64,000 nt of DNA from Candidatus Woesebacteria bacterium (GCA_013426185.1 CP058602.1:628549-692548), one strand, 5' to 3'. Counted from the first letter of the stretch, positions 40,981 to 52,094 are shown. Program-made: numbers and translations. The notes: a model not told the origin generated them from the sequence alone.

Positions 40981-41344
40981 TGGTGGAGACGGAGGGATTT
41001 GAACCCTCATCCGAGAAAAAATACCTAAAAACTTCTACAGGTTTAGTCAGTATTGTTTTTTCCTCTGGGATTTACTTACTGACAAGAATTCCCAAAGTGA
41101 GGTTTTAATTTTTGAGCTTTAGCCTGAAAACCAACAAACTAAAGCCGATCTTGACTGGTTTACACCATCAAAAAGCGGTCAAGAAGCACTTTTTGAGATG
41201 CCAACTTAGGCAAACGCGTAAGCGTAGCCGGTTGGAGCGCTAACTTTTACGTTGTCGCTTGTTTTTTTAACCAATTTTTACAAGTTTGGTTAAACTTGAC
41301 CTGCAGTTTTTAAAGTACTTTTTCCGTCGAGACCTGTCGTCCCC
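40981..41344 (-). ncRNA. ssrA: tmRNA (SsrA)
   Basis: Minus-strand 5' end GGGGACGACAGGTCTCGACGG… pairs with 3' end …GGGTTCAAATCCCTCCGTCTCCACCA, forming an acceptor stem with a G3:U70 wobble. Internal tag ORF reads …SDNVKVSAPTGYAYAFA*. Lies immediately downstream of smpB. Confidence 0.8.
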
Positions 41345-43246: not shown

Positions 43247-44419
43247 TTAATAGGCTTTTTTATTTTTTTCTAAGAAAATGAATAGAAGCGCAGAAATCAC
43301 CGCCGTTGTTCCTCCAAAAATAAATGGCAGTCTGACGTCAATATAAGTCCAAAGTAGTCCGGCAATAAGGGAAGCAAAAAAAGTACAAACTCCGGTTGCC
43401 ATCTGATAAACACCAAGAGAGGTGGCCATTCTTTCTTTATCACCTATTAAGCTCACGTAAGCTTTACTCACGCCTTCAGTCAGAGCCATATAGAAGCCGT
43501 AGAACATAAAGAGGAGCCAGATCAAAATCTGAGATTGATTGATGCCAAAAAGAAAGTAAATAACAGCAAAGAGAAACCAGCCAAAAATAAGTAATTTCTT
43601 GGGACCAACTTTATCGCTTAAGACGCCAGCAGGTGTGGAAAAAATTGCGTAGGAAAGGTTAAAAAAAGCGTAGGCAAAGACAGCCAGACTGGTAGTTAAA
43701 CCAAGATTTTTTGCTCTTAAGATTAGAAAGGTATCTGAGCTGTTGCCAATAGCAAAGATGATGCTAGTAAAAAGAAAGATCTTGAATGAAGGGTTTAGGT
43801 TTCTAAGAGAAAATTTTGGTAAGACTGTTTTTCCTGTTTCTATTCTTTTTTCTTTAACGAAAAATACAAGAAGTAAAACGGCAATTAAGCCAGGGAAAAA
43901 GGCAATATAGAAAATTTGCCTGAGATTATTATCAAGAAATTTAATTAAAATTATGGCGGTCAAAGGGCCTATTACTGCTCCTAAAGTGTCTAATGCCCGA
44001 TGGAAACCAAAAGCCCTGCCTCTTTTTGTTTTATCGCTGTTTTCAGCAATTAAGGCATCTCTTGCTGAGGTTCTAATGCCTTTTCCAAAGCGATCCATAA
44101 AACGGCCTAATAAGACAAGAGGCCAGTTTTGGGCAAAACCAATAATTAGTTTGGAAAAGGTGGAAAGGGAATAGCCTCCGGTGATAAAAATCTTTCTTTT
44201 CTTAAGTTTATCAGAAAACCAGCCGGAAAAAGCTTTCAAGAGACTGGCAGTTGATTCTGCTATTCCCTCAATTAAACCAACTACTGAGGCTGGCGCTTGT
44301 AATACCGAGGTTAAGAAAATTGGCACGATGGGGTAAATCATCTCAGAGGCTATATCATTAAAAAAACTGACAAGTCCCAGAATAAAAACATTTCTTGAGA
44401 CGCCGAGTTTATTTTTCAT
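43247..44419 (-). CDS. MFS transporter
   Basis: 12 hydrophobic helices. Motif-A-like segments GRFMDRFGKG and FGWFLFAV typical of the major facilitator superfamily. Confidence 0.7.
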   Translation of the reverse strand: MKNKLGVSRNVFILGLVSFFNDIASEMIYPIVPIFLTSVLQAPASVVGLIEGIAESTASLLKAFSGWFSDKLKKRKIFITGGYSLSTFSKLIIGFAQNWPLVLLGRFMDRFGKGIRTSARDALIAENSDKTKRGRAFGFHRALDTLGAVIGPLTAIILIKFLDNNLRQIFYIAFFPGLIAVLLLVFFVKEKRIETGKTVLPKFSLRNLNPSFKIFLFTSIIFAIGNSSDTFLILRAKNLGLTTSLAVFAYAFFNLSYAIFSTPAGVLSDKVGPKKLLIFGWFLFAVIYFLFGINQSQILIWLLFMFYGFYMALTEGVSKAYVSLIGDKERMATSLGVYQMATGVCTFFASLIAGLLWTYIDVRLPFIFGGTTAVISALLFIFLEKNKKAY

Positions 44420-44605
44420 AGAGATTTCCCTTTCGTGGGCTTTTTAGTTGTTAAAACCCTTGCACACCAAAGTATAATCCTGAAAAAATTACTCCGCAAT
44501 TAAAAATACTAATCTTTCTTCCTATATAACTTTTATTGAAGTTTGTTGTGTTAAATTGTAAAGCTGTGTCTTTAGCGTATGGAAAAATGGTTCAGATAAG
44601 AACTT

Positions 44606-44627
44606 AAAAAGCCTGTACTTTAGGCTT
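44606..44627 (-). terminator. Rho-independent terminator-like hairpin on minus strand (AAGCCUAAAGUACAGGCUU + UUUUU)
   Basis: 6-bp GC-containing stem, 7-nt loop, followed by a T-run when read on the minus strand. It lies between the island's left end and the MFS gene, consistent with an original terminator of the tRNA-Arg/tRNA-Ser transcription unit. Confidence 0.35.
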
Positions 44628-44741
44628 GGAATTTATTATCTGTTCTGGGGTTATTTGAACGGCTTAAAATTTAATTTAGAATCTTTGCGGTGTCTGTTCG
44701 AAAAAATTCGAACCGATTTCGCCCAAAACCGATAAAACTCG

Positions 44742-44787
44742 CGGGGCGGGCGGCATTCCCCCCCAGACCCCCCTTCCGCCCGCCCCG
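44742..44787. repeat. GC-rich perfect 12-bp-stem hairpin (cggggcgggcgg…ccgcccgccccg) with C-rich 22-nt loop
   Basis: Direct reading. The composition is very atypical for this AT-rich window. Confidence 0.6.
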
Positions 44788-44971
44788 TGGAAGGCGACCT
44801 TTTCGGATTGAAAAACTGCCAAAGAACCTGAAAAAATATCGGCTCGAACTTTATTTTGGCCAAAAGCGGGCTTTTTCTCATCTTTGCCTTGTAAAAATTT
44901 ACTTGCTTTTATTATATTTGTTAGTATAATAATGAAAGAAGAAAATATCAACAATTTTATGATATCAAAAT

Positions 44972-45184
44972 ATGGAAAATAATCAAGGCAATAAATTAGG
45001 AAAGAAAATCAAAAAGTTAAGAACTGATCTTGGTTTGTCTCAAGACGAGCTCGCCCGAAAAGCCGATATACCTTATACCACTTTAACCAAGATTGAAACA
45101 GGGGTTATTAAAAAGCCTTCTGTGTATGTGGTGGCGAAGATTGCAAAGGCGTTGAATACAAAATTGGATGATTTAATAAATTAA
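44972..45184 (+). CDS. XRE-family HTH transcriptional regulator (candidate R-M controller C-protein)
   Basis: HTH KKLRTDLGLSQDELARKADIPYTTLTKIETG. 70 aa. Immediately upstream of the endonuclease and methyltransferase genes. Confidence 0.65.
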   Translation: MENNQGNKLGKKIKKLRTDLGLSQDELARKADIPYTTLTKIETGVIKKPSVYVVAKIAKALNTKLDDLIN

Positions 45185-45196
45185 GGATAAAAAACT

Positions 45197-45979
45197 ATGA
45201 ACTATTGGCTAAAATTAAGTATTGAATACGCTAACCAAAGAAGTTATTTGGATGATTTATTTCAAGTATATCCAACTATACCCGAGGGTATCAGAGATAT
45301 AGATGAAAATATTTGGGAAGAAGTAGAACAAGCTTTTAAAAACAAAGACAATACTGGACTGTTAAAGAGCCTTCTTAAGTTCGACCTTTTCCCAATAAAA
45401 GATTCTTATGTAGCTTATCTAAAGAGGGATCCGTCTGCAATCGAAAGAAACCCAGCCACAGTAAACCGACTTTGCGGAAGACTTTATGAAATGGGTCTCG
45501 ACAATATTTTTAAGCGTTGTTCAGAACCTAAAGAAACGAACAGACAAATAGGCCCTTTATTTAGGCGATGGCTTAACAAAAAATCTTTAGGTATTCAACC
45601 CGTTAAATTAGAAGAATTTTTAAAAACAAAAGAAAATGCCATATTAGATGGAAGTGATGCGGAGATAAAAAGTTTTGCTCAAGAGCATTTAAATTACAAC
45701 AGAAACAAAGGGCTAGATTTTATTGCTAGATTTAATGGTAAATACATTATTGGTGAAGCCAAATTTTTAACAGATTTTGGTGGTCATCAAAATGCTCAAT
45801 TCAATGATGCAATAGAAACACTGAAGTTGAAAGGTGTCAAGGCTATTACTATAGCCATATTAGATGGAGTTTTATATATCAAGGGGAATAATAAAATGTA
45901 TCGTGAAATAACGACAACTTTCAAAGACTACAATATCATGAGCAGTTTGGTTTTAAGAGATTTTTTATACCAAGTTTAA
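45197..45979 (+). CDS. Putative type II restriction endonuclease (PD-(D/E)xK-like)
   Basis: LDFIARFNGKYIIGEAKF gives a D…ExK arrangement. Position between the C-protein and the methyltransferase. Confidence 0.4.
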   Translation: MNYWLKLSIEYANQRSYLDDLFQVYPTIPEGIRDIDENIWEEVEQAFKNKDNTGLLKSLLKFDLFPIKDSYVAYLKRDPSAIERNPATVNRLCGRLYEMGLDNIFKRCSEPKETNRQIGPLFRRWLNKKSLGIQPVKLEEFLKTKENAILDGSDAEIKSFAQEHLNYNRNKGLDFIARFNGKYIIGEAKFLTDFGGHQNAQFNDAIETLKLKGVKAITIAILDGVLYIKGNNKMYREITTTFKDYNIMSSLVLRDFLYQV

Positions 45980-46065
45980 TTTATTTAGGACTATGATACT
46001 GACTTATAAAAATAAAAAAAAAAGAAATAGATATAATTAATCACACCAAGAAAGCCAAACTTGTT

Positions 46066-47121
46066 TATGTTTCTGAACAAAAGGGATTCAGAAACAAGCT
46101 AATTCAGGGTAATAATCTTGAAGTATTAAAAACTCTTTTAGAAGATTACAACTTTAAAGGGAAAATAGATCTTGTTTACATAGATCCTCCATTTGCTACA
46201 AACGGAGATTTTAAGATAAGTGATGATAGAGCTAATACCGTGAGTAAAAGCTCCTCTGATGAGGTCGCATATAGCGATACCCTAACTGGTAGCGATTATC
46301 TGGAATTTTTAAGAGAGCGTTTGATCCTATTGAGAGAATTGATGTCTGAAAAAGCGTCTATATATCTTCATATTGATTATAAGATTGGGCACTATGTGAA
46401 GGTTATAATGGACGAAGTTTTTGGGGTTGAAAATTTCCGTAATGATATAACACGTATCAAATGTAATCCTAAAAATTTTCAAAGAAAGGCTTATGGCAAT
46501 ATAAAGGATTTAATACTTTTTTATTCTAAAACAAAAAACCCAACTTGGAATGATCCGAGAGTTCCTTTTACTGAAGAAGACATCCGAAGATTGTTTACAA
46601 AAGTTGATAAAGATGGAAGAAGATATACAACTGTACCATTACATGCTCCAGGTGAAACATTAAACGGTAAAACTGGACAAGAGTGGAGAGGAATAAGACC
46701 TCCAAAGGGAAGACATTGGAGGAGCGACCCCGAAGTTTTAGATGAGCTAGATAAGAAAGGTTTAATAGAATGGTCAGAGAGTGGAGTACCGAGAAAGAAG
46801 ATTTATGCTGATGAACAAAAGGGTAAAAAAATGCAGGATATTTGGGAATTTAAGGACCCTCAATATCCTTTGTATCCTACGGAAAAAAACTTAGATTTAT
46901 TAAAGACTATTATAAAGGCTTCTTCAAATGAAGGCGATCTTGTACTTGATTGTTTTTGTGGATCTGGAACAACATTAGTTGCCGCACAAGAATTAAATAG
47001 AAATTGGATTGGTATTGACCAATCAGAGCATGCAATAAAAGTAACAAAAAAAAGACTATCTAAAATACCAAGAGATTTATTCTCTGGTGATGTAGAATAT
47101 GAATTTTTAATTCAAAAATAG
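46066..47121 (+). CDS. DNA methyltransferase (N6-adenine/N4-cytosine, beta-class)
   Basis: Motif IV DPPF (IDLVYIDPPFATNGDF) precedes motif I FxGxG (VLDCFCGSGTTLVAA). Start moved upstream to the ATG at 46066 from the track's GTG at 46240. Confidence 0.8.
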   Translation, partial: YVSEQKGFRNKLIQGNNLEVLKTLLEDYNFKGKIDLVYIDPPFATNGDFKISDDRANTVSKSSSDEVAYSDTLTGSDYLEFLRERLILLRELMSEKASIYLHIDYKIGHYVKVIMDEVFGVENFRNDITRIKCNPKNFQRKAYGNIKDLILFYSKTKNPTWNDPRVPFTEEDIRRLFTKVDKDGRRYTTVPLHAPGETLNGKTGQEWRGIRPPKGRHWRSDPEVLDELDKKGLIEWSESGVPRKKIYADEQKGKKMQDIWEFKDPQYPLYPTEKNLDLLKTIIKASSNEGDLVLDCFCGSGTTLVAAQELNRNWIGIDQSEHAIKVTKKRLSKIPRDLFSGDVEYEFLIQK

Positions 47122-47125
47122 CCAG

Positions 47126-48877
47126 ATGAGAATTACAGAATTAACAATAAAAAATTACCGGAGTTTTGACCCAGCAGGACAGACAATAAAATTCCCCTCG
47201 GTTCATTGTGCTTTAGTTGGAAAAAATAATGCAGGTAAGAGCAATATCTTTAGTGCATTAAACCTAGTTTTAGGAGCTAAAAATCCTGCTTACATAAAAT
47301 TTGAGGAAGATGACTACTTCGATATAAATTTACCAATCGAAATAAAAGTTGTTATTTCTGACATAACAGAGGATGATAAAAATATTTTGTTTACACTTCC
47401 TAATTTAACAAGGCAACAAAAAGGTGCTTTAAATTCAAAAATATCCAATGGCGAAGCAGATATAACTTTTTTGTTGCGAAAAAACTATGAATATATTCCA
47501 CTAGATGAAGACGAAGAACAAGCAGGTGAATCTCAAGATACTTTTGAAATAAAACTTTGGGGATTCAATGTTTATAGAAAAAAAGAAGATATTCGAAAAT
47601 TTTTAATACGCACGTTGTTAGTTCCAGCTGTAAGAGATTACAAAAATGAACTTTCTGCCTCTAAATGGACCCAATACGGGCAATTAATGAAAAGTGTTTT
47701 AGAAGACTCCCCTAAATATGCAGAGATAAAATCTGATCTTCAAAATTTAAATGAGAAAATTCAAGAAATATTTAAGAGCGAGAAAGAGAAACTTTTAAAA
47801 AGCGCGCGTATTGTTTCTTATGTTGATGATATTTCCTTTCAGTTAACAAAGGAAAACCATCCTTCAGAATTATTAAGAAATCTTGAGATTTTTATTAAAG
47901 AAGGTGGTAAATTATTTAATATCGATTATGTTGGTACAGGCACTCAAAGTGCTATTATTATTGGTATCCTTGAACTAGCATTAAAAAATAAATCGACAAA
48001 AAATAGGGTATTTTGCATTGAAGAACCAGAAGCCTTCATCCACCCTCATGGAATTAGGTATTTAGGAAGTCTTATTAAGAATATTTCTAGTGAGCAGAAT
48101 ACACAAGTTATTATTTCAACTCACTCTCTATCACTTACTGCTAATTTCGAACCAAAGGAGATAATTAAGGTTGATAAGGAAAACGGAAAAACTGTAATTA
48201 GACAAGATCCCTCTTTTGATGTTGTTCCTTTTAGACGATTTATTCATCAGGATAATGCAGAATTGTTCTTTAGCGATAGAGTAATTTTGGTAGAAGGACC
48301 AACAGAAAAGCATCTTTTCGATAATTTAGACAAAATCACAAAACAAAATCCCGCAAATCCAGATAGTGAGGATTGTAATTTTGACAGGATAAATATCGGT
48401 ATAATTAGGATGGATTCTGTTGATAGTATTGTAAATTACATAAAGATACTTTCTGCTTTTGGTATTGAATATTGCGCAATTGTTGATAAAGATTTTGTTT
48501 TAGATCCATCAAAACAGAATAAACTTAAGGAGTTATGTAGAGAGATCGGAGTTAATTATCAAAACAATGACATACCCCAACTGATAAATAATTTAAAATC
48601 AAAAAATATTCTAGTTAATACAAAAGGAGAAATCGAAGATTTATTTCCTGACCAAGATATTGCAAATATTACTGGAAGAAATATATCAGATATACAGGGA
48701 ATAAAGAGTAAATATCCAAATAAGACAAGCAAAGCATTTAAAGAATTGTTTGGTACTGGTAAAGCAGAATACGCAATCCAGATTGCAGGCTATTATGTAC
48801 AAAATAATACCTCTCATCCTTTAGAGGATATTATTAGAAAACTTTACAAAAAGGATATTTCTAATATAAATTTATAA
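47126..48877 (+). CDS. OLD-family ATP-dependent endonuclease (N-terminal ABC-type ATPase plus C-terminal Toprim; GajA-like)
   Basis: Walker A ALVGKNNAGKSNIF. Walker B / H-loop VFCIEEPEAFIHPHG. Toprim-like ILVEGPTEKHLFDNL … AIVDKDF. Confidence 0.7.
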   Translation: MRITELTIKNYRSFDPAGQTIKFPSVHCALVGKNNAGKSNIFSALNLVLGAKNPAYIKFEEDDYFDINLPIEIKVVISDITEDDKNILFTLPNLTRQQKGALNSKISNGEADITFLLRKNYEYIPLDEDEEQAGESQDTFEIKLWGFNVYRKKEDIRKFLIRTLLVPAVRDYKNELSASKWTQYGQLMKSVLEDSPKYAEIKSDLQNLNEKIQEIFKSEKEKLLKSARIVSYVDDISFQLTKENHPSELLRNLEIFIKEGGKLFNIDYVGTGTQSAIIIGILELALKNKSTKNRVFCIEEPEAFIHPHGIRYLGSLIKNISSEQNTQVIISTHSLSLTANFEPKEIIKVDKENGKTVIRQDPSFDVVPFRRFIHQDNAELFFSDRVILVEGPTEKHLFDNLDKITKQNPANPDSEDCNFDRINIGIIRMDSVDSIVNYIKILSAFGIEYCAIVDKDFVLDPSKQNKLKELCREIGVNYQNNDIPQLINNLKSKNILVNTKGEIEDLFPDQDIANITGRNISDIQGIKSKYPNKTSKAFKELFGTGKAEYAIQIAGYYVQNNTSHPLEDIIRKLYKKDISNINL

Positions 48878-50334
48878 AAGAATTTGCCGCCAAAGAAAAA
48901 CTTGAAATCGTCGCCTCGCTTTGCGAGGCAAAAACTGCCAAAGAACCTGGCCGAACTGTGTTCGGCGAAATGTTAGATAGAATTGAAAAGGGCGCAGCCC
49001 AAGGAATTTTGGCTTGGCATCCTGATAGACTGGCAAGAAATTCCATTGATGGCGGAAGGATTATCTATCTGCTGGACACAGGAAAACTTAAGGATTTAAA
49101 ATTTCCTACTTTTTGGTTTGATAATACACCACAAGGCAAGTTTATGTTGAATATTGCCTTTGGGCAAAGCAAATATTACATAGATAATCTTTCAGAAAAC
49201 ATTAAACGAGGACACAGGGCAAAACTACGAAAAGGTATTTGGCCAAGCTTTGCCCCTCTTGGATATCTCAACAACCATAAGACAAAAGGGATAGATATTG
49301 ATCAAGAGAAAGCACCGCTTATCAGAAAAGCGTTTGAATTATACGCCACTGGAGAATATACGCTAAAAGCAATTGCAAAAATTTTAAAAGACGCAGGACT
49401 TAGAAGCTACAAGGGCAAGGTGCTTTCTGTTTCCTGTGTCCAGCGAATGCTTAAAAATACGTTTTACTATGGTGTTTTTAGGTTCAATGGCGAAATGTAT
49501 GATGGAAGCCACGAGCCAATTATTTCCAAGAAACTTTTTGATACTATTCAACAGGTAATGAATAACAGAGGCAAGAAAAAGCGAAAAAGAAAACATAACT
49601 TTGCTTTTTCTGGGCTTATGCGTTGCGGAAATTGCGGTTGCATGATTACTGCTGAAATTCAAAAGGGATATATTTATTATCGTTGCACCAAGAAAAAGCA
49701 AAGATGCAATGAAAAGTATTTGCGCGAAGAAAAACTTGTTGAACAGCTAAAAGCAATAATTCAAAAAGTTTCCTTGCCAGATGAATGGGCAGAGAAAATG
49801 TTGGAAGAAATTGAGAAAGAGAAGGAACAGGCCAAACAAGAAACAAAATCACTTGTTCAAAATCTATTAAAACAAAAAGTGGCAATTGAAAGGAAGATGG
49901 ACAGACTGCTTGATCTTTATATTGAAGGCAAGGGTATTGAACCGGAAGAATATCAAGCTAAAAAACAGAAACTTCTTAATGAAAAACTGAAAATTCAACA
50001 GAAGATTAAAGATTTTGAACAAACAGGAAATAATTGGCTCGAACCAATGAAAGAAATGATTTTAGCCAGTAGCCAAGCCAAAATTCTATCGTCGCAGAGC
50101 GACAATTCTCAAATTCGAGCATTTCTAAAAAATATCGGCTCGAACTTTATTTTAAAAGGTAAAAAATTCCAATTTGAAGGGAAAATCGGCTGGCGTGCCC
50201 TTTTAAATTCCCCCCAGAATACCAATTGGCGGAGGGTACAGGATTCGAACCTGTGCCCGCCTGTAAGGCGGAGCGGTTTTCGAGACCGCCGCTTTAGTCC
50301 ACTCAGCCAACCCTCCACTCTTGGCTCCTTTTAA
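48865..50334 (+). pseudogene. Large serine recombinase lacking the N-terminal catalytic-serine segment (likely inactivated integrase of the island); 3' end runs into tRNA-Ser
   Basis: Resolvase-domain remainder …GILAWHPDRLARN…, recombinase domain, Zn ribbon CGNCGCMITAEIQKGYIYYRC, and coiled coil. The reading frame opens only at 48865, so roughly 40 aa including the catalytic serine region are missing. The ORF reads through the tRNA gene. Confidence 0.5.
50227..50316 (-). tRNA. tRNA-Ser (anticodon CGA), with CCA encoded
   Basis: Manual fold: acceptor GGAGGGT/ACCCTCC, anticodon stem GCGGT/ACCGC, loop CUCGAAA, long variable arm CCGCC…GGCGG, T-arm ACAGG-TTCGAAT-CCTGT. Confidence 0.8.
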
Positions 50335-50338
50335 TTAG

Positions 50339-50411
50339 TGCACCTGGGAGGAATTGAACCTCCAACCTTTTGGTCCGCAACCAAACGTTCTATCCGTTGA
50401 ACTACAGGTGC
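50339..50411 (-). tRNA. tRNA, anticodon read as GCG (Arg) by manual folding
   Basis: Acceptor GCACCTG/CAGGTGC, D-arm GTTCAACGGATAGAAC, anticodon stem TTTGG/CCAAA, loop UUGCGGA, T-arm GGAGG-TTCAATT-CCTCC. Confidence 0.65.
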
Positions 50412-50466
50412 GAATGAAACAAGAACTACAAACTAGTTTTCCCGCCAGTTTACAATAATTCTTTTT

Positions 50467-50982
50467 TTATCTATTTTGCATTTTGGTCGAGAACCAGCCA
50501 GCCAGTTTTTCAAGTGAGGAAGGAGGAATAGGTTGTTTAACAACATAATTTTTCAAAACAGATTCTATTTTCTCTTTGTCTTTTTTCTCTGTCACAAGCT
50601 CCATTTTCCCCGGTATAAAGTTAGTTCCCAAAATAAGCTTGTTGTAATCTTTTTCTTCTTCTATCCAAAAACTAATAATATTTTCCCAGGGAATGATGTT
50701 GTCTTTTATTCTCACTCCAAAGTTGGTTATTTTGTACTCAACTTTCTCAGGTTCTACATTGTGCAAGATAAAATAAAGGAAAGACAAAGCTATTAAAAGT
50801 ACAACAGGCACCCACCCTTCCGCTATAAAAATAATAAGGCTGATAACTGCCAAAACCGCGCCTGAATTAAGATAAAATTCTTTGCTTTTCTTTTCAAAGG
50901 GCCTAAGGTAAGCTTGCCAAGAGAAAAACACTTGTTCTTGAACAAGCTTTGGTTCTTTTTTTTCTGGGACAGGCATTTTCAT
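50467..50982 (-). CDS. Hypothetical membrane protein (two TM plus C-terminal soluble domain)
   Basis: 171-aa ORF. Hydrophobic helices AVLAVISLIIFIAEGWVPVVLLIALSFLYFIL. Confidence 0.45.
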   Translation of the reverse strand: MKMPVPEKKEPKLVQEQVFFSWQAYLRPFEKKSKEFYLNSGAVLAVISLIIFIAEGWVPVVLLIALSFLYFILHNVEPEKVEYKITNFGVRIKDNIIPWENIISFWIEEEKDYNKLILGTNFIPGKMELVTEKKDKEKIESVLKNYVVKQPIPPSSLEKLAGWFSTKMQNR

Positions 50983-51011
50983 CTAACAAAATTATATCAG
51001 ATTTATCCAAA

Positions 51012-51040
51012 TTTACCTAAGGAGACTCTTCTGCTATAAT
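51012..51040 (+). promoter_or_regulatory. Candidate sigma70 promoter for tRNA-Ser(GCT)
   Basis: TATAAT at 51035..51040, 10 nt upstream of the tRNA 5' end. Weak -35-like tttacc 17 bp upstream. Confidence 0.3.
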
Positions 51041-51049
51041 TGCTTTATT

Positions 51050-51135
51050 GGAGGTGTCGCCTAGTGGTCGATGGCAGAGGTTTGCTAAACCTCGACCCCA
51101 AAAGGGTCACGTGGGTTCGAATCCCACCACCTCCG
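51050..51135 (+). tRNA. tRNA-Ser (anticodon GCT)
   Basis: Acceptor GGAGGTG/CACCTCC, anticodon stem GAGGT/ACCTC, loop UUGCUAA, long variable arm, T-arm GTGGG-TTCGAAT-CCCAC. Confidence 0.8.
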
Positions 51136-51139
51136 CTTT

Positions 51140-51571
51140 ATGAATAACAATCTGATGCTTGTTGGGGGAGCTGTTGTCTTTAAAAGGGCAAATAATGGCC
51201 GTGTGGATTGGTTCTTGGTTGAGGAAAATAGCAAGGGTTGGGAAATTCCCAAAGCTGTTGTGAGAAAAGGTGAATCGTCTGTCAGGGCGGTTTTGCGGAC
51301 AATGGGGGAGCAAGCTGGTATGAGTTGCCGAGTTTTAGAAGAGGTGGGTAGGATTGAGGATAATCTTGAGGTTAATGGTAAAAAGACTTCCCGAAGGATT
51401 ATTTATTATTTGGTCTTGGGTAGAACTGGTGGTGAGGCTTTGGGTTTTGACAGCTCTGCTTGGCTTAATCTTAATTCGGCTTTAAAAAGAGTGTCTTGGG
51501 AGAAAGAGAAAATGATTTTAAAAAAGGCTAAGCTTGAGTTTGAAAAGTGGCTTTCAAGACAAAAGAAATAG
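51140..51571 (+). CDS. NUDIX-like hydrolase (degenerate Nudix box)
   Basis: 143-aa ORF. Segment KGESSVRAVLRTMGEQAG partially fits the GX5EX7REUXEEXGU Nudix signature. Confidence 0.4.
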   Translation: MNNNLMLVGGAVVFKRANNGRVDWFLVEENSKGWEIPKAVVRKGESSVRAVLRTMGEQAGMSCRVLEEVGRIEDNLEVNGKKTSRRIIYYLVLGRTGGEALGFDSSAWLNLNSALKRVSWEKEKMILKKAKLEFEKWLSRQKK

Positions 51572-51580
51572 CTTTTAGTG

Positions 51581-51668
51581 GGGTGGGATCGCATAGTGGA
51601 CTAGTGCGCACGCTTGGAGAGCGTGTGTCGCCGCAAGGTGACCGAGGGTTCGAATCCCTCTCCCACCG
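51581..51668 (+). tRNA. tRNA-Ser (anticodon GGA)
   Basis: Acceptor GGTGGGA/TCCCACC, anticodon stem CACGC/GCGTG, loop UUGGAGA, long variable arm, T-arm GAGGG-TTCGAAT-CCCTC. Confidence 0.8.
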
Positions 51669-51686
51669 CTTAATTTCCCTTACCTT

Positions 51687-51806
51687 GGTGGGTTGGCCGA
51701 GTGGTTTATTTCGAACGAAGTGAGAAACAAGCTTTGTTTTTTAAGCGGAGCGAGAAAAACAAAGCTTATGGCGCAGGTCTTGTCCGCCATTGGCGGATCA
51801 AGTTTT
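51687..51806 (+). pseudogene. Partial/disrupted copy of tRNA-Ser(TGA): 5' part, then a 60-nt insert containing a 12-bp hairpin, then D/anticodon-stem remnant
   Basis: ggtgggttggccgagtggttta and …atggcgcaggtcttg… are identical to the intact gene at 51912. The insert carries aagctttgtttt / aaaacaaagctt inverted repeats. No T-arm follows. Confidence 0.5.
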
Positions 51807-51843
51807 AGGAGGGATTGATATCTGTTGTTTTGGCTTTTACATT

Positions 51844-51868
51844 GGTGGGTTGGCCGAGTGGTTTACTG
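51844..51868 (+). pseudogene. Second partial copy of the tRNA-Ser(TGA) 5' end (acceptor plus D-arm only)
   Basis: ggtgggttggccgagtggtttac matches the first 22 nt of the intact tRNA, followed by unrelated sequence. Confidence 0.5.
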
Positions 51869-51911
51869 CGAAGCAGCAAAACACGAGGCTAATCTGAATA
51901 GCTTTTTCTTT

Positions 51912-51995
51912 GGTGGGTTGGCCGAGTGGTTTATGGCGCAGGTCTTGAAAACCTGTGGGAGCAATCCCTCAGAGGTTCGAATCCTCTACCCACCG
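51912..51995 (+). tRNA. tRNA-Ser (anticodon TGA)
   Basis: Acceptor GGTGGGT/ACCCACC, anticodon stem CAGGT/ACCTG, loop CUUGAAA, long variable arm, T-arm AGAGG-TTCGAAT-CCTCT. Confidence 0.8.
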
Positions 51996-52005
51996 CCTCT
52001 CTCTT

Positions 52006-52077
52006 GCCCCCGTAGTTTAATGGATAAAACGAGGGCTTCCGGAGCCTTCGATGGAAGTTCAATTCTTCCCGGGGGCA
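52006..52077 (+). tRNA. tRNA-Arg (anticodon CCG)
   Basis: Acceptor GCCCCCG/CGGGGGC with discriminator A, anticodon stem AGGGC/GCCTT (one G-U pair), loop UUCCGGA, T-arm GGAAG-TTCAATT-CTTCC. Confidence 0.7.
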
Positions 52078-52094
52078 CAGTGAAGCTGGGAGGC

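What the first reader, a model, noticed from the sequence alone, without database searches (positions are those of the whole stretch)
44690..50226. Defence island (C-protein / REase / MTase plus a stand-alone OLD/GajA-like nuclease) integrated at tRNA-Ser(CGA) with a decapitated serine integrase
All five genes are on the plus strand between a degenerate partial tRNA copy at the left end and the intact tRNA-Ser at the right end. The large serine recombinase lacks its catalytic N-terminus because its frame opens only at 48865. It reads into the tRNA, so the island is probably immobilised. A minus-strand terminator hairpin at 44606..44627, left of the island, fits an original tRNA-operon terminator that the insertion displaced by 5.5 kb. 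The OLD-family protein is alone, with no GajB-like helicase partner, which makes it a class 1 OLD. Its true role here (defence, or helper of the R-M system) is open.
Basis: partly seen in the sequence, partly recalled or inferred. Interest (0 to 1): 0.7.

Follow-up and report, generated by a model that had tools for sequence, protein, structure and literature searches.

The report
Decapitated serine-integrase restriction island at tRNA-Ser
A 5.5-kb mobile island carrying a restriction-modification system and an OLD nuclease is inserted at the 3' end of a serine tRNA gene in a Woesebacteria genome; it belongs to a widespread family of serine-integrase elements that home to tRNA genes, for which I found no description, and this copy has lost the start of its integrase gene, so it cannot move on its own.

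Summary
A sister-strain contig (L085) has the empty site. The island is 5,542 bp, bounded by a 4-nt core (GCGG) at 44687-44690 and 50229-50232.

Genes:
- HTH regulator.
- Tsp45I-family REase.
- N6/N4 MTase, frameshifted by one extra A (A10 versus A9 in eight other copies).
- Class-1-like OLD nuclease.
- A large serine recombinase (LSR) lacking residues 1-28, including the catalytic Ser10.

A 99%-identical intact copy exists in an Ignavibacterium-like contig.

The island belongs to a large cross-phylum family of small LSR elements that mostly carry R-M cargo. In 61 of 73 assessable loci the recombinase gene abuts an antisense tRNA gene. The element-side arm of attP carries the T-loop motif ATTCGAACC 15 nt from the core. 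In the tRNA the same motif lies 10 nt from the core, which is the known LSR attP/attB 5-bp register shift.

The decapitation is a deletion between a short repeat placed after the cargo and recombinase codons 28-40. It recurs in three other loci with different cargo.

Unexplained: a 47-nt fusion of two recombinase segments that co-evolves with each element's own recombinase, and a second, inverted attP copy in intact elements.

The parts
44609..44627 (-). Hairpin plus T-run: the native terminator of the tRNA-Arg/tRNA-Ser unit, displaced 5.5 kb by the island.
   Evidence: Terminator scan. In the empty site of L085 the same hairpin lies about 75 nt from the tRNA 3' end.
44687..44690 (+). attL core GCGG (crossover region).
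   Evidence: 4-nt overlap of the two flank alignments to empty-site locus L085. GCGG is invariant at all attL, attR and attP junctions of the family.
44691..44810 (+). P' arm of attP. It contains the T-loop mimic ATTCGAACC at 44706-44714 (15 nt from the core), the GC-rich hairpin 44742-44787, and a spacer. Together these form the 'bHX' module. Intact elements carry it twice, as about 124-nt inverted repeats.
   Evidence: Module map over 84 loci. attP reconstruction. 5-bp register shift relative to the tRNA arm (PMC3783163).
44811..44857 (+). 'AB' 47-mer: an exact, out-of-frame fusion of recombinase nt 48930-48949 and 50127-50153.
   Evidence: Repeat finder and blastn. Conserved in at least 35 elements and co-varying with each element's own recombinase.
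44858..44877 (+). 20-nt repeat ggccaaaagcgggctttttc. Intact elements also have it just upstream of the recombinase ATG.
44889..44971 (+). Cargo-operon promoter region, with the inverted repeat ATATCA-N9-TGATAT between the -10 box and the ATG (candidate operator).
   Evidence: Promoter scan and sequence reading. The region is conserved with the HTH gene across elements. Function is inferred.
44972..45184 (+). HTH_3 (XRE-type) regulator. It is the backbone first gene of the cargo operon and a candidate generic controller (C) protein.
   Evidence: Pfam HTH_3 4e-16. PADLOC HTH_VI, capH and Control_protein. Present ahead of different cargo in other elements.
45197..45979 (+). Type II restriction endonuclease, Tsp45I family.
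   Evidence: Pfam PF06300 9e-127 over the full length. PADLOC REase_II 4e-132. One nt differs from the L165 copy.
45993..47121 (+). N6/N4 DNA methyltransferase, frameshifted by an extra A in the run at 46014-46023 (A10 here, A9 elsewhere).
   Evidence: Removing one A restores a 375-aa ORF that differs by 1 aa from the L165 copy.
47126..48877 (+). OLD-family ATPase-Toprim nuclease, stand-alone (class 1 type by context and similarity).
   Evidence: Pfam AAA_15 plus OLD-like_TOPRIM. PADLOC Old 1e-54, better than GajA 7.5e-44. Best PDB match is 6P74 TsOLD. 95% identical to the OLD of L003, which has a different R-M module.
48877..48912 (+). Junction repeat 'a' (recombinase codons 28-40): the deletion endpoint where the cargo is fused to the headless recombinase.
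   Evidence: In intact siblings a copy of this sequence follows the OLD stop codon, and a second copy lies inside the recombinase gene. The same fusion point occurs in L016, L030 and L034.
48877..50334 (+). Large serine recombinase lacking residues 1-28 (catalytic Ser10 absent). The ORF runs antisense through the tRNA.
   Evidence: Pfam Resolvase (from model position 23), Recombinase and Zn_ribbon_recom. 100% identical over 450 aa to the full-length P0001. 99.6% nt identity to the intact L165 gene.
50155..50228 (+). P arm of attP/attR (the 3' tail of the recombinase ORF). Intact elements carry a second, inverted copy of about 70 nt upstream of the recombinase gene.
50229..50232 (+). attR core GCGG.
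50227..50316 (-). tRNA-Ser(CGA), the integration target. Its encoded CCA end is supplied by the island (native 3' end ..CCTCCG|CAAAG; with the island ..CCTCCG|CCAATTGG).
   Evidence: ARAGORN. Rfam tRNA at 50230-50316. Empty-site comparison.

Best explanation
The region is an integrated copy of a small mobile element. The element's only mobility gene is a large serine recombinase (LSR) that uses the 3' end of tRNA genes as attB. In this clade the target is tRNA-Ser of any anticodon.

How integration works:
- The excised element carries attP, laid out as P arm - GCGG - P' arm. The P arm is the last ~70 nt of the recombinase ORF.
- The LSR recombines attP with attB, which is the downstream flank - GCGG - tRNA acceptor/T arm.
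- No tRNA sequence is duplicated and the tRNA body stays intact. The element supplies a new 3' trailer that includes an encoded CCA.
- The P' arm carries the T-loop motif ATTCGAACC 5 bp further from the core than the tRNA does. This is the register difference by which serine integrases tell attP half-sites from attB half-sites.

Cargo: a slot headed by a conserved HTH regulator. Here it holds a Tsp45I-type R-M pair followed by a stand-alone OLD nuclease.

How this copy was disabled:
- It derives from the 'flipped' isomer, in which the cargo is co-directional with the recombinase gene.
- A deletion occurred between a short repeat that follows the cargo ('a') and recombinase codons 28-40.
- The deletion removed the internal attP copy, the recombinase promoter/leader and codons 1-27. 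The recombinase therefore lacks Ser10 and cannot excise or integrate the island.
- The MTase carries a +1 frameshift in an A-run.

What is shown and what is inferred:
- Shown: the insertion, its boundaries, the gene identities, the truncation, the family architecture and the tRNA association.
- Inferred: the recombination chemistry, the deletion pathway and its timing, regulation by the HTH protein, and the defence role of OLD.
For: - Empty site in L085 with a 4-nt overlap.
- Gene families.
- Full-length homologues and the missing 28 residues.
- The intact element with the same cargo, 98.9-99.6% identical, in L165-L170.
- Module map of 84 species-level loci showing three arrangements: canonical in 36 loci, flipped in L003 and L011, and flipped plus decapitated in the window, L016, L030 and L034.
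- In L165 and L003 the sequence after the OLD stop codon is a copy of recombinase codons 28-40. The window continues from it straight into the recombinase gene.
- 61 of 73 assessable loci have an antisense tRNA abutting the recombinase 3' end. Close relatives target Ser. More distant ones target Gln, Leu, Trp, Arg, Val and others.
- attR, attL and attP alignments show an invariant GCGG and a 10-nt versus 15-nt spacing of ATTCGAACC. This matches the 5-bp shift of the zinc-ribbon-domain motif described for the LI integrase (PMC3783163).
- L001 sits in a non-tRNA pseudo-site that keeps ATTCGAAT at the 10-nt spacing.
- Cargo in other elements is mostly type II R-M.
Against: - No experiment or read-level evidence of excision or integration exists. 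Mobility is inferred from comparative genomics alone.
- No recombination directionality factor was identified.
- The host-side (B) arms show no consensus, so how the second half-site is recognised is unknown.
- The homology at the deletion junction may be only 16-19 nt if the progenitor had the GC-rich insert seen in L165. The pathway is therefore plausible, not proven.
- The deletion could predate integration.
- The MTase frameshift could be a homopolymer sequencing error.
- Many family members come from MAGs, whose taxonomic labels can be wrong.
Confidence: 0.85

Rival explanations
1. The element was already headless when it integrated. A non-autonomous derivative (cargo fused to recombinase codon 28, with a single attP) was integrated in trans by an intact family member. 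On this view the decapitation did not occur in situ.
For: - attL and attR are perfect family-type sites.
- Sister strains carry other family members at the same attB (L089), so helper recombinases circulate in this population.
- Tandem arrays exist (L007, L068).
Against: - No second recombinase gene lies in the 64-kb window.
- Headless copies in other loci decay (L034 has an in-frame stop), which suggests dead ends rather than propagating lineages.
- The window recombinase remnant is still 99.6% identical to an intact gene, which fits either scenario.
Confidence: 0.3
2. The truncation and/or the MTase frameshift are assembly or sequencing artefacts, and the real locus carries an intact element.
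For: - Intact elements contain ~124-190-nt inverted repeats and short direct repeats that break many assemblies. Many contigs end inside the repeat module.
- A single extra base in an A10 run is a typical homopolymer error.
Against: - The window comes from an 818,817-bp contig and is contiguous across the junction.
- The same fusion at codon 28 occurs in three other independent assemblies with different cargo.
- A 400-nt deletion is not a typical collapse at a 16-36-nt repeat.
Confidence: 0.1
3. The short recombinase-derived repeats (a, A, B) are functional. They either form a built-in switch that flips or deletes the recombinase 5' end (programmed self-inactivation and domestication), or encode an antisense leader that controls recombinase expression. 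On this view the decapitation is an outcome the element is built to produce, not an accident.
For: - The breakpoint recurs at the same nucleotide in four loci.
- The AB copy shares 100 of 129 lineage-specific substitutions with its own recombinase.
- AB holds a fixed antisense position about 340 nt upstream of codon 28 in 36 loci.
Against: - There is no known mechanism.
- There is no Rfam match, and the fold energy is not exceptional (z = -0.98).
- Only about 5% of assessable copies are headless.
- Concerted evolution of short repeats can arise from gene conversion or templated repair without any function.
Confidence: 0.2
4. OLD is a functional partner of the R-M module rather than an independent class 1 defence gene. 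For example, it could be an exonuclease that degrades DNA cut by the REase, in hosts that lack RecBCD-type nucleases.
For: [quoted passage not shown]
- L007 has a 947-aa SMC_N ATPase in the same position.
- The class 1 enzyme TsOLD is a 5'-3' exonuclease on linear dsDNA (PMC10568477).
Against: - Many family members carry R-M without OLD.
- In L006 the OLD gene is split by an IS element while the R-M genes next to it remain full-length ORFs.
- There are no biochemical data.
Confidence: 0.3
5. The five genes are ancestral to the locus, not an insertion.
For: Base composition does not distinguish the island from its flanks.
Against: - Precise empty site in L085 and L086.
- A 99% identical element in an unrelated genomic context.
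Confidence: 0.01

Closest known systems
Large serine integrases of the A118/LI type (Listeria phage A118; PDB 4KIS)
   Same: - Same domain order: resolvase catalytic domain, recombinase domain, zinc ribbon with coiled-coil.
- att sites without long repeats and with a very short core.
- A shared 9-bp distal motif placed 5 bp closer to the core in attB than in attP (PMC3783163).
   Different: - Sequence similarity is remote: PDB E 9e-7, and phage LSRs are below 30% identical.
- The target is a tRNA gene 3' end, not a protein-coding gene.
- The attP core lies inside the recombinase's own ORF.
- Intact elements carry a second, inverted attP.
- The element is 2.5-7 kb with no phage or conjugation genes.
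tRNA-gene genomic islands of the Islander type (tyrosine integrases)
   Same: - Site-specific insertion at the 3' side of a tRNA gene.
- The tRNA stays functional.
- Defence cargo.
- The site is a hot spot in sister strains.
   Different: - The recombinase is serine-type. [quoted passage not shown]
- No displaced tRNA fragment or long direct repeat exists. Only GCGG is shared.
Tsp45I-type type II restriction-modification systems with a controller protein
   Same: A full-length REase match to PF06300, an adjacent N6/N4 MTase, and an upstream small HTH gene.
   Different: - The MTase is frameshifted here.
- The HTH gene belongs to the element backbone and precedes unrelated R-M modules in other elements.
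- The recognition sequence was not tested.
Class 1 OLD nucleases (P2 Old, Thermus scotoductus OLD 6P74)
   Same: - A single polypeptide with an ABC ATPase and a Toprim domain.
- No helicase, RT or split partner.
- The best PADLOC and PDB matches are Old and TsOLD.
   Different: - Class 1 is described as single genes not close to other defence genes (PMC10568477). Here OLD is the last gene of an R-M operon on a mobile element, and it recurs with three different R-M modules.
Gabija (GajA/GajB)
   Same: GajA profiles match the OLD protein (best 7.5e-44).
   Different: - No GajB-like helicase lies anywhere in the island. All ORFs are accounted for.
- The Old profile scores higher than the GajA profiles.
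- No GajA structure matches at E <= 1e-3.
Mobile R-M units linked to integrases (Furuta, Abe and Kobayashi 2010, PMC2853133)
   Same: R-M gene complexes travel as small units next to mobility genes.
   Different: That survey is listed from a search only and was not read. The specific LSR/tRNA architecture, the dual attP and the recombinase-derived repeats were not found in any paper I could search.

Membership tests
Large serine recombinase (serine integrase) integrative element | N-terminal resolvase catalytic domain with the serine nucleophile. | tested here: not met
   The window copy starts at residue 29. The Resolvase HMM match begins at model position 23, and Ser10 of MKYFIYARKS is absent. 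The feature is met in the 99.6%-identical sibling in L165.
Large serine recombinase (serine integrase) integrative element | Recombinase domain plus zinc-ribbon domain C-terminal to the catalytic domain. | tested here: met
   PF07508 2.6e-19 and PF13408 6.6e-10. Remote match to the A118 integrase C-terminal domain.
Large serine recombinase (serine integrase) integrative element | attL and attR share only a very short core with attB. There is no long target duplication. | tested here: met
   The empty-site comparison gives a 4-nt shared core, GCGG. The core is invariant across the family's junctions.
Large serine recombinase (serine integrase) integrative element | A distal half-site motif lying 5 bp closer to the core in attB than in attP. 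| tested here: met
   ATTCGAACC lies 10 nt after GCGG in the tRNA arms and 15 nt after GCGG in the P' arm. The criterion comes from PMC3783163. Only one half-site pair shows it. The B and P arms on the other side were not resolved.
Large serine recombinase (serine integrase) integrative element | Catalysis of attP x attB recombination, and a directionality factor for excision. | not testable with these tools
Type II restriction-modification system (Tsp45I type) | Restriction endonuclease of a recognised type II family. | tested here: met
   PF06300 over residues 2-259 of 260, E 9e-127. PADLOC REase_II.
Type II restriction-modification system (Tsp45I type) | An intact cognate methyltransferase gene. 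| tested here: not met
   A +1 frameshift in the A10 run at 46014-46023. Eight other copies have A9 and a 375-aa ORF. It may be a sequencing error.
Type II restriction-modification system (Tsp45I type) | A controller protein that binds an operator upstream of its own gene. | tested here: inconclusive
   The HTH protein matches PADLOC Control_protein at 8.8e-9, but matches HTH_VI and capH better. An inverted repeat, ATATCA-N9-TGATAT, lies between the -10 box and the ATG. The gene is backbone.
Class 1 OLD nuclease | ABC ATPase plus Toprim domains in one polypeptide. | tested here: met
   AAA_15 at residues 1-336 and OLD-like_TOPRIM at 381-456.
Class 1 OLD nuclease | No adjacent UvrD-like helicase (class 2), no RT or ncRNA (class 3), and not split like AriA/AriB. 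| tested here: met
   All island ORFs are assigned to other families. There is no Rfam retron or other RNA family in 44300-50500.
Class 1 OLD nuclease | A single gene not close to other defence genes (PMC10568477). | tested here: not met
   OLD starts 5 nt after the MTase stop codon in the R-M operon. The same linkage is seen in L003, L006 and L165.
Gabija | A GajA nuclease paired with a GajB helicase. | tested here: not met
   No helicase gene lies in or next to the island.
Islander-type tDNA island (tyrosine integrase) | A tyrosine integrase, and a displaced tRNA fragment forming a direct repeat with the regenerated tRNA end. | tested here: not met
   The recombinase is serine-type. blastn with word size 7 finds no tRNA match at the left end. 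Only GCGG is shared.

The most novel reading that the evidence does not exclude
The island is a dead copy of a family of minimal 'R-M shuttles' that has not been described and spans several phyla.

Features of the family under this reading:
- Its serine integrase reads the acceptor/T-arm of tRNA genes as attB. Sub-clades have retargeted to Ser, Gln, Leu, Trp, Arg, Val and other tRNAs.
- It keeps two inverted attP copies around the integrase gene.
- It carries three short integrase-derived repeats that co-evolve with the integrase.

The repeats would act in one of two ways. They could be an antisense control of the integrase. Or they could be a built-in route to flipping and self-decapitation that locks the cargo into the host.

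Nearly identical copies in a CPR bacterium (Woesebacteria), an Ignavibacterium-like genome and Schleiferia thermophila would then record very recent transfer between phyla in hot-spring communities.
Probability: 0.3. Interest if true: 0.8.

Novelty: new variant of a known kind. Interest (0 to 1): 0.62.

Why it matters
- **tRNA targeting by a serine integrase.** tRNA-gene integration has been treated as the province of tyrosine integrases. [quoted passage not shown] The large LSR survey I read never mentions tRNA in its main text (PMC10083194). A whole LSR clade that targets tRNA 3' ends, with sub-clades retargeted to different tRNAs, would change that picture.
- **Possible tools.** tRNA targets are conserved in every organism. 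These enzymes could therefore be broad-host-range landing-pad integrases, and the reconstructed att sites given here can be tested directly.
- **How restriction systems spread.** The family is a compact vehicle mostly dedicated to R-M systems. It shows how such systems could move between distant phyla, including genome-reduced CPR bacteria.
- **What class 1 OLD proteins do.** The recurrent R-M plus OLD linkage gives a concrete setting to test what stand-alone OLD proteins do. The OLD review flags this as an open question (PMC10568477).
- **This copy.** For the window itself the message is modest. It is a recently acquired, now immobilised defence island whose MTase may also be broken.

Tried and rejected
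- **tRNA copy at the left end.** blastn with word size 7 of 44560-44970 against the whole window found none. The 'partial tRNA copy' reading was replaced by the shifted T-loop mimic in the attP arm.
- **AB 47-mer as a local deletion scar or filler DNA.** Rejected, because the identical junction is conserved in at least 35 elements.
- **A minimal 'integrase-only' transposon with the P arms as terminal inverted repeats.** Not supported. Every locus with enough upstream sequence also has the AB/cargo module.
- **'Both attP copies are used for integration' (from L049).** Cannot be claimed. The L049 arrangement can equally arise by inversion across the 70-nt P-arm repeats after integration.
- **Structured RNA at the left end.** No Rfam family matches, and the fold z-score is -0.98.
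- **The 20-nt repeat after AB as a terminator.** On reading the sequence, the only possible stem would enclose a 2-nt loop, so I do not treat it as a terminator. It was not tested separately.
- **Plasmid or phage carrier.** No megablast match to the island in PLSDB or INPHARED.
- **Literature.** Searches for this family (serine recombinase with tRNA, Patescibacteria/CPR, or R-M) returned nothing specific.
- **First PADLOC call.** It failed because of wrong MTase coordinates and was repeated.

Full report
**1. What is in the window**

Five plus-strand genes lie between 44972 and 50334:
- a 70-aa HTH_3 protein;
- a 260-aa Tsp45I-family restriction endonuclease (Pfam E 9e-127; PADLOC REase_II 4e-132);
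- an N6/N4 methyltransferase (PADLOC MTase_II 2e-178);
- a 583-aa OLD protein (AAA_15 plus OLD-like TOPRIM);
- a large serine recombinase (LSR) with Resolvase, Recombinase and Zn-ribbon domains.

The LSR frame opens at 48865 and runs antisense through tRNA-Ser(CGA) at 50227-50316. The Resolvase model is matched only from position 23. Full-length homologues, one of them 100% identical over the 450 residues compared, begin MKYFIYARKSTDSEERQVLSIEAQLAEL. The window copy starts at the next residue, so it lacks the Y-x-R-x-S catalytic motif with Ser10. GC content does not distinguish the region from its flanks. The host is a Candidatus Woesebacteria MAG with an 818,817-bp contig.

**2. It is an insertion, with exact boundaries**

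A metagenome scan with the neighbouring MFS transporter found sister-strain contigs. In L085, window 43256-44690 and 50229-50427 are adjacent, overlapping by 4 nt.
- attB is ..TTAATTTAGAATCTTT-GCGG-AGGGTACAGGATTCGAACC..
- attL is ..AGAATCTTT-GCGG-TGTCTGTTCGAAAAAATTCGAACC..
- attR is ..CCCCCCAGAATACCAATTG-GCGG-AGGGTACAGG..

The island is therefore 5,542 bp, with cores at 44687-44690 and 50229-50232. Three further points follow.
- The hairpin plus T-run at 44609-44627 lies about 75 nt from the tRNA end in the empty site.
- The native tRNA has no encoded CCA (..CCTCCG|CAAAG). With the island it reads ..CCTCCG|CCAATTGG.
- L086 is also empty at this junction. L089 carries a different family member at the same attL, with 114-nt inverted repeats. 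The site is a hot spot.

**3. The left end is not a tRNA fragment**

blastn with word size 7 finds no tRNA similarity there. It finds two exact matches to the recombinase gene, and they lie side by side. 44811-44830 equals 48930-48949, and 44831-44857 equals 50127-50153. This 'AB' 47-mer is part of the element, not a local scar (section 7).

**4. The family**

The recombinase has thousands of relatives. A scan of one genome per species returned 84 loci. They come from Patescibacteria and, by record title, from Schleiferia thermophila DSM 21410 (an isolate, 95% identical), Kiritimatiellia, Omnitrophota, Margulisiibacteriota, Elusimicrobiota, Gammaproteobacteria MAGs and others.

In 61 of 73 assessable loci an antisense tRNA gene abuts the recombinase 3' end.
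- Relatives at 70% identity or more: Ser 23, Gln 2.
- More distant relatives: Ser 9, Gln 9, Leu 7, Arg 3, Trp 3, Val 2, and Asn, Tyr and Lys 1 each.

All close relatives have the same P arm, the last ~70 nt of the ORF, joined through GCGG to different tRNA-Ser bodies.

**5. Architecture**

The canonical arrangement, seen in 36 loci, reads as follows:

host | P'-arm module 'bHX' (+) - rc(a) - cargo and HTH gene pointing left - rc(20-nt repeat) - rc(AB) - bHX (-) - GCGG - inverted ~70-nt copy of the P arm - leader - recombinase - P arm - GCGG | tRNA

- The recombinase gene is flanked by two inverted copies of attP, and the cargo by two inverted bHX modules of about 124 nt.
- In L003 and L011 the cargo segment is flipped, so that HTH, cargo and recombinase are co-directional.
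- The reconstructed attP (P arm - GCGG - P' arm) is exactly the internal copy seen upstream of intact recombinase genes.
- The P' arm carries ATTCGAACC 15 nt after the core. The tRNA arms carry it 10 nt after the core. Rutherford et al. showed for the LI integrase that the 9-bp zinc-ribbon-domain motif lies 5 bp closer to the centre in attB than in attP (PMC3783163).
- L001 sits in a non-tRNA pseudo-site that keeps ATTCGAAT at the 10-nt spacing.

**6. How this copy lost its head**

An intact element with the same cargo occurs in L165-L170, in the canonical arrangement. Its cargo is 98.9% and its recombinase 99.6% identical at the nucleotide level to the window. The host is probably an Ignavibacterium.

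There, as in L003, the OLD stop codon is followed by a copy of recombinase codons 28-40 ('a', with a 35-nt GC-hairpin insert), then bHX(-), the inverted P arm, the leader and the recombinase ATG. In the window the OLD stop codon is followed by the same sequence, which runs straight on into the recombinase gene.

The window is therefore the flipped isomer minus everything between 'a' and codons 28-40. That is about 400 nt, comprising the internal attP, the leader and codons 1-27.

The same fusion point, with different cargo ends, occurs in L016, L030 and L034. The L034 remnant already has an in-frame stop. I infer a recurrent short-repeat deletion that yields dead-end copies. Whether it happened before or after integration here cannot be told.

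**7. Unexplained features**

The AB fusion has the same junction in at least 35 elements whose recombinases differ by up to 45%.
- It follows its own recombinase. At 100 of the 129 positions where an element's recombinase departs from the family consensus, its AB copy carries the same base. Mean self-identity is 44.7 of 47, against 39.6 of 47 to the recombinases of other elements. The loci are phylogenetically related, so these counts are not independent events.
- In the canonical form AB lies antisense, about 340 nt upstream of codon 28.
- There is no Rfam match, and the fold is not exceptional.

Three candidate explanations remain untested: an antisense leader or small RNA, gene conversion or templated repair, and the relic of a dead recombinase copy. 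The order 20-nt repeat - cargo - a - A - B is a circular permutation of a recombinase unit. The purpose of the second attP is also unknown.

**8. Cargo**

The HTH gene heads the operon in nearly all elements, whatever follows it. It is 87-96% identical in L001, L003, L006 and L007. Other cargoes:
- TdeIII, CfrBI and NgoPII REases with N6/N4 or C5 MTases, and a Vsr;
- an Eco57I/MmeI-like type IIG enzyme;
- a 947-aa SMC_N ATPase;
- the same OLD (95% identical in L003; in L006 it is split by an IS3-like transposase).

The family is an R-M shuttle, and the HTH protein is at best a generic controller.

OLD scores best against the PADLOC 'Old' model (1e-54, versus 7.5e-44 for GajA) and against TsOLD 6P74, with no GajA structure matched. 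It is class 1 by exclusion. It departs from the description 'not proximal to other defence genes' (PMC10568477).

**9. The methyltransferase**

The ATG at 45993 lies 14 nt after the REase stop codon, as in the intact copies. The window has A10 at 46014-46023 where eight other contigs have A9. Removing one A restores a 375-aa ORF with one amino-acid difference. This could be a real inactivation, phase variation or a homopolymer error. If it is real, the intact REase (1 nt different from the L165 copy) would be expected to be silent, inactive or under counter-selection.

**10. Comparison with what is known**

- The closest solved relative of the recombinase is the A118/LI integrase C-terminal domain (E 9e-7).
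- Phage LSRs are below 30% identical.
- The island has no megablast match in plasmid or phage collections.
- A review of integrative mobilisable elements places serine-recombinase sites inside genes (PMC5704250).
- The main text of the LSR survey does not mention tRNA (PMC10083194).
- I found no description of this family. The searchable library is incomplete, so this is absence of evidence only.

**11. Verdict**

As a single locus it is an ordinary, recently acquired and now immobilised defence island. Its family is of greater interest than the locus. It is an LSR lineage specialised on tRNA 3' ends, with att-site logic that can be read from the sequences. It is dedicated mostly to R-M cargo and spread across phyla. 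Its internal repeats behave in a way I cannot explain.

Noticed in passing
window 50227-52078: Four tRNA-Ser genes (CGA, GCT, GGA, TGA) and two tRNA-Arg genes lie within 1.9 kb. Only Ser(CGA) is occupied, although close family members use all four Ser anticodon types in other genomes.
   Followed up: partly
L086 1771-3469; L097 6168-8886; L089 1-3649: Sister-strain contigs differ at this locus. L086 has about 1.7 kb of extra sequence between the MFS gene and the terminator. L097 has 2.7 kb of unrelated sequence at the tRNA site. L089 has another family member with 114-nt inverted repeats at the same attL.
   Followed up: partly
L006 4822-6963 (Schleiferia thermophila DSM 21410): The OLD gene of this element is split by an IS3-like (rve) transposase gene. 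The strain is a cultured isolate carrying a canonical intact element, which makes it usable for experiments.
   Followed up: partly
L001 3104-3160: An intact element, with a recombinase 100% identical to the window remnant, sits at a site where ARAGORN finds no tRNA. The junction is GCAG plus 10 nt plus ATTCGAAT, a pseudo-attB.
   Followed up: partly
L003 3885-3919; L165 11697-11731: A 35-nt GC-rich double-hairpin insert (GCTCGGC..GCCGAGC, AATCCGCC..GGCGGATT) interrupts the 'a' repeat in some elements. Similar GC-rich hairpins occur in the bHX module, and two small hairpins flank segment A inside the recombinase gene (window 48913-48929 and 48950-48966).
   Followed up: no
L007 577-4214; L068 4465-15050: Tandem or nested arrays of family members and remnants lie next to one tRNA gene, showing accretion at the site.
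   Followed up: no
L049 2564-4370: An alternative arrangement: tRNA-Trp on the same strand lies just upstream of the recombinase gene, and an intact P arm-GCGG-bHX-AB junction lies downstream. It could arise by integration through the second attP or by inversion across the P-arm repeats.
   Followed up: partly
window 50229-50334: Integration changes the recombinase C-terminus. Reading the reconstructed attP in L165 gives an excised-form ending of ..NWRCLFEKIRTDFAQNR. In the window's integrated form the ORF runs 34 codons (RVQDSNLCPP..GSF) beyond ..NWR, antisense through the tRNA. Homologues in other hosts have different tails.
   Followed up: partly
window 40981-41344: A tmRNA gene on the minus strand (tag peptide DNVKVSAPTGYAYAFA), unrelated to the finding.
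   Followed up: no
protein cluster of L165 recombinase: The 90%-identity recombinase cluster includes a record labelled Candidatus Pacearchaeota archaeon (HOS88349.1). This is either a mis-binned contig or a sign of transfer into DPANN archaea.
   Followed up: no
L088 8121-8988: In an 80%-identical relative of the host, remnants of a family element (inverted P arm, the 20-nt repeat, and recombinase codons 28-40) lie 13 nt upstream of the MFS gene homologue.
   Followed up: no
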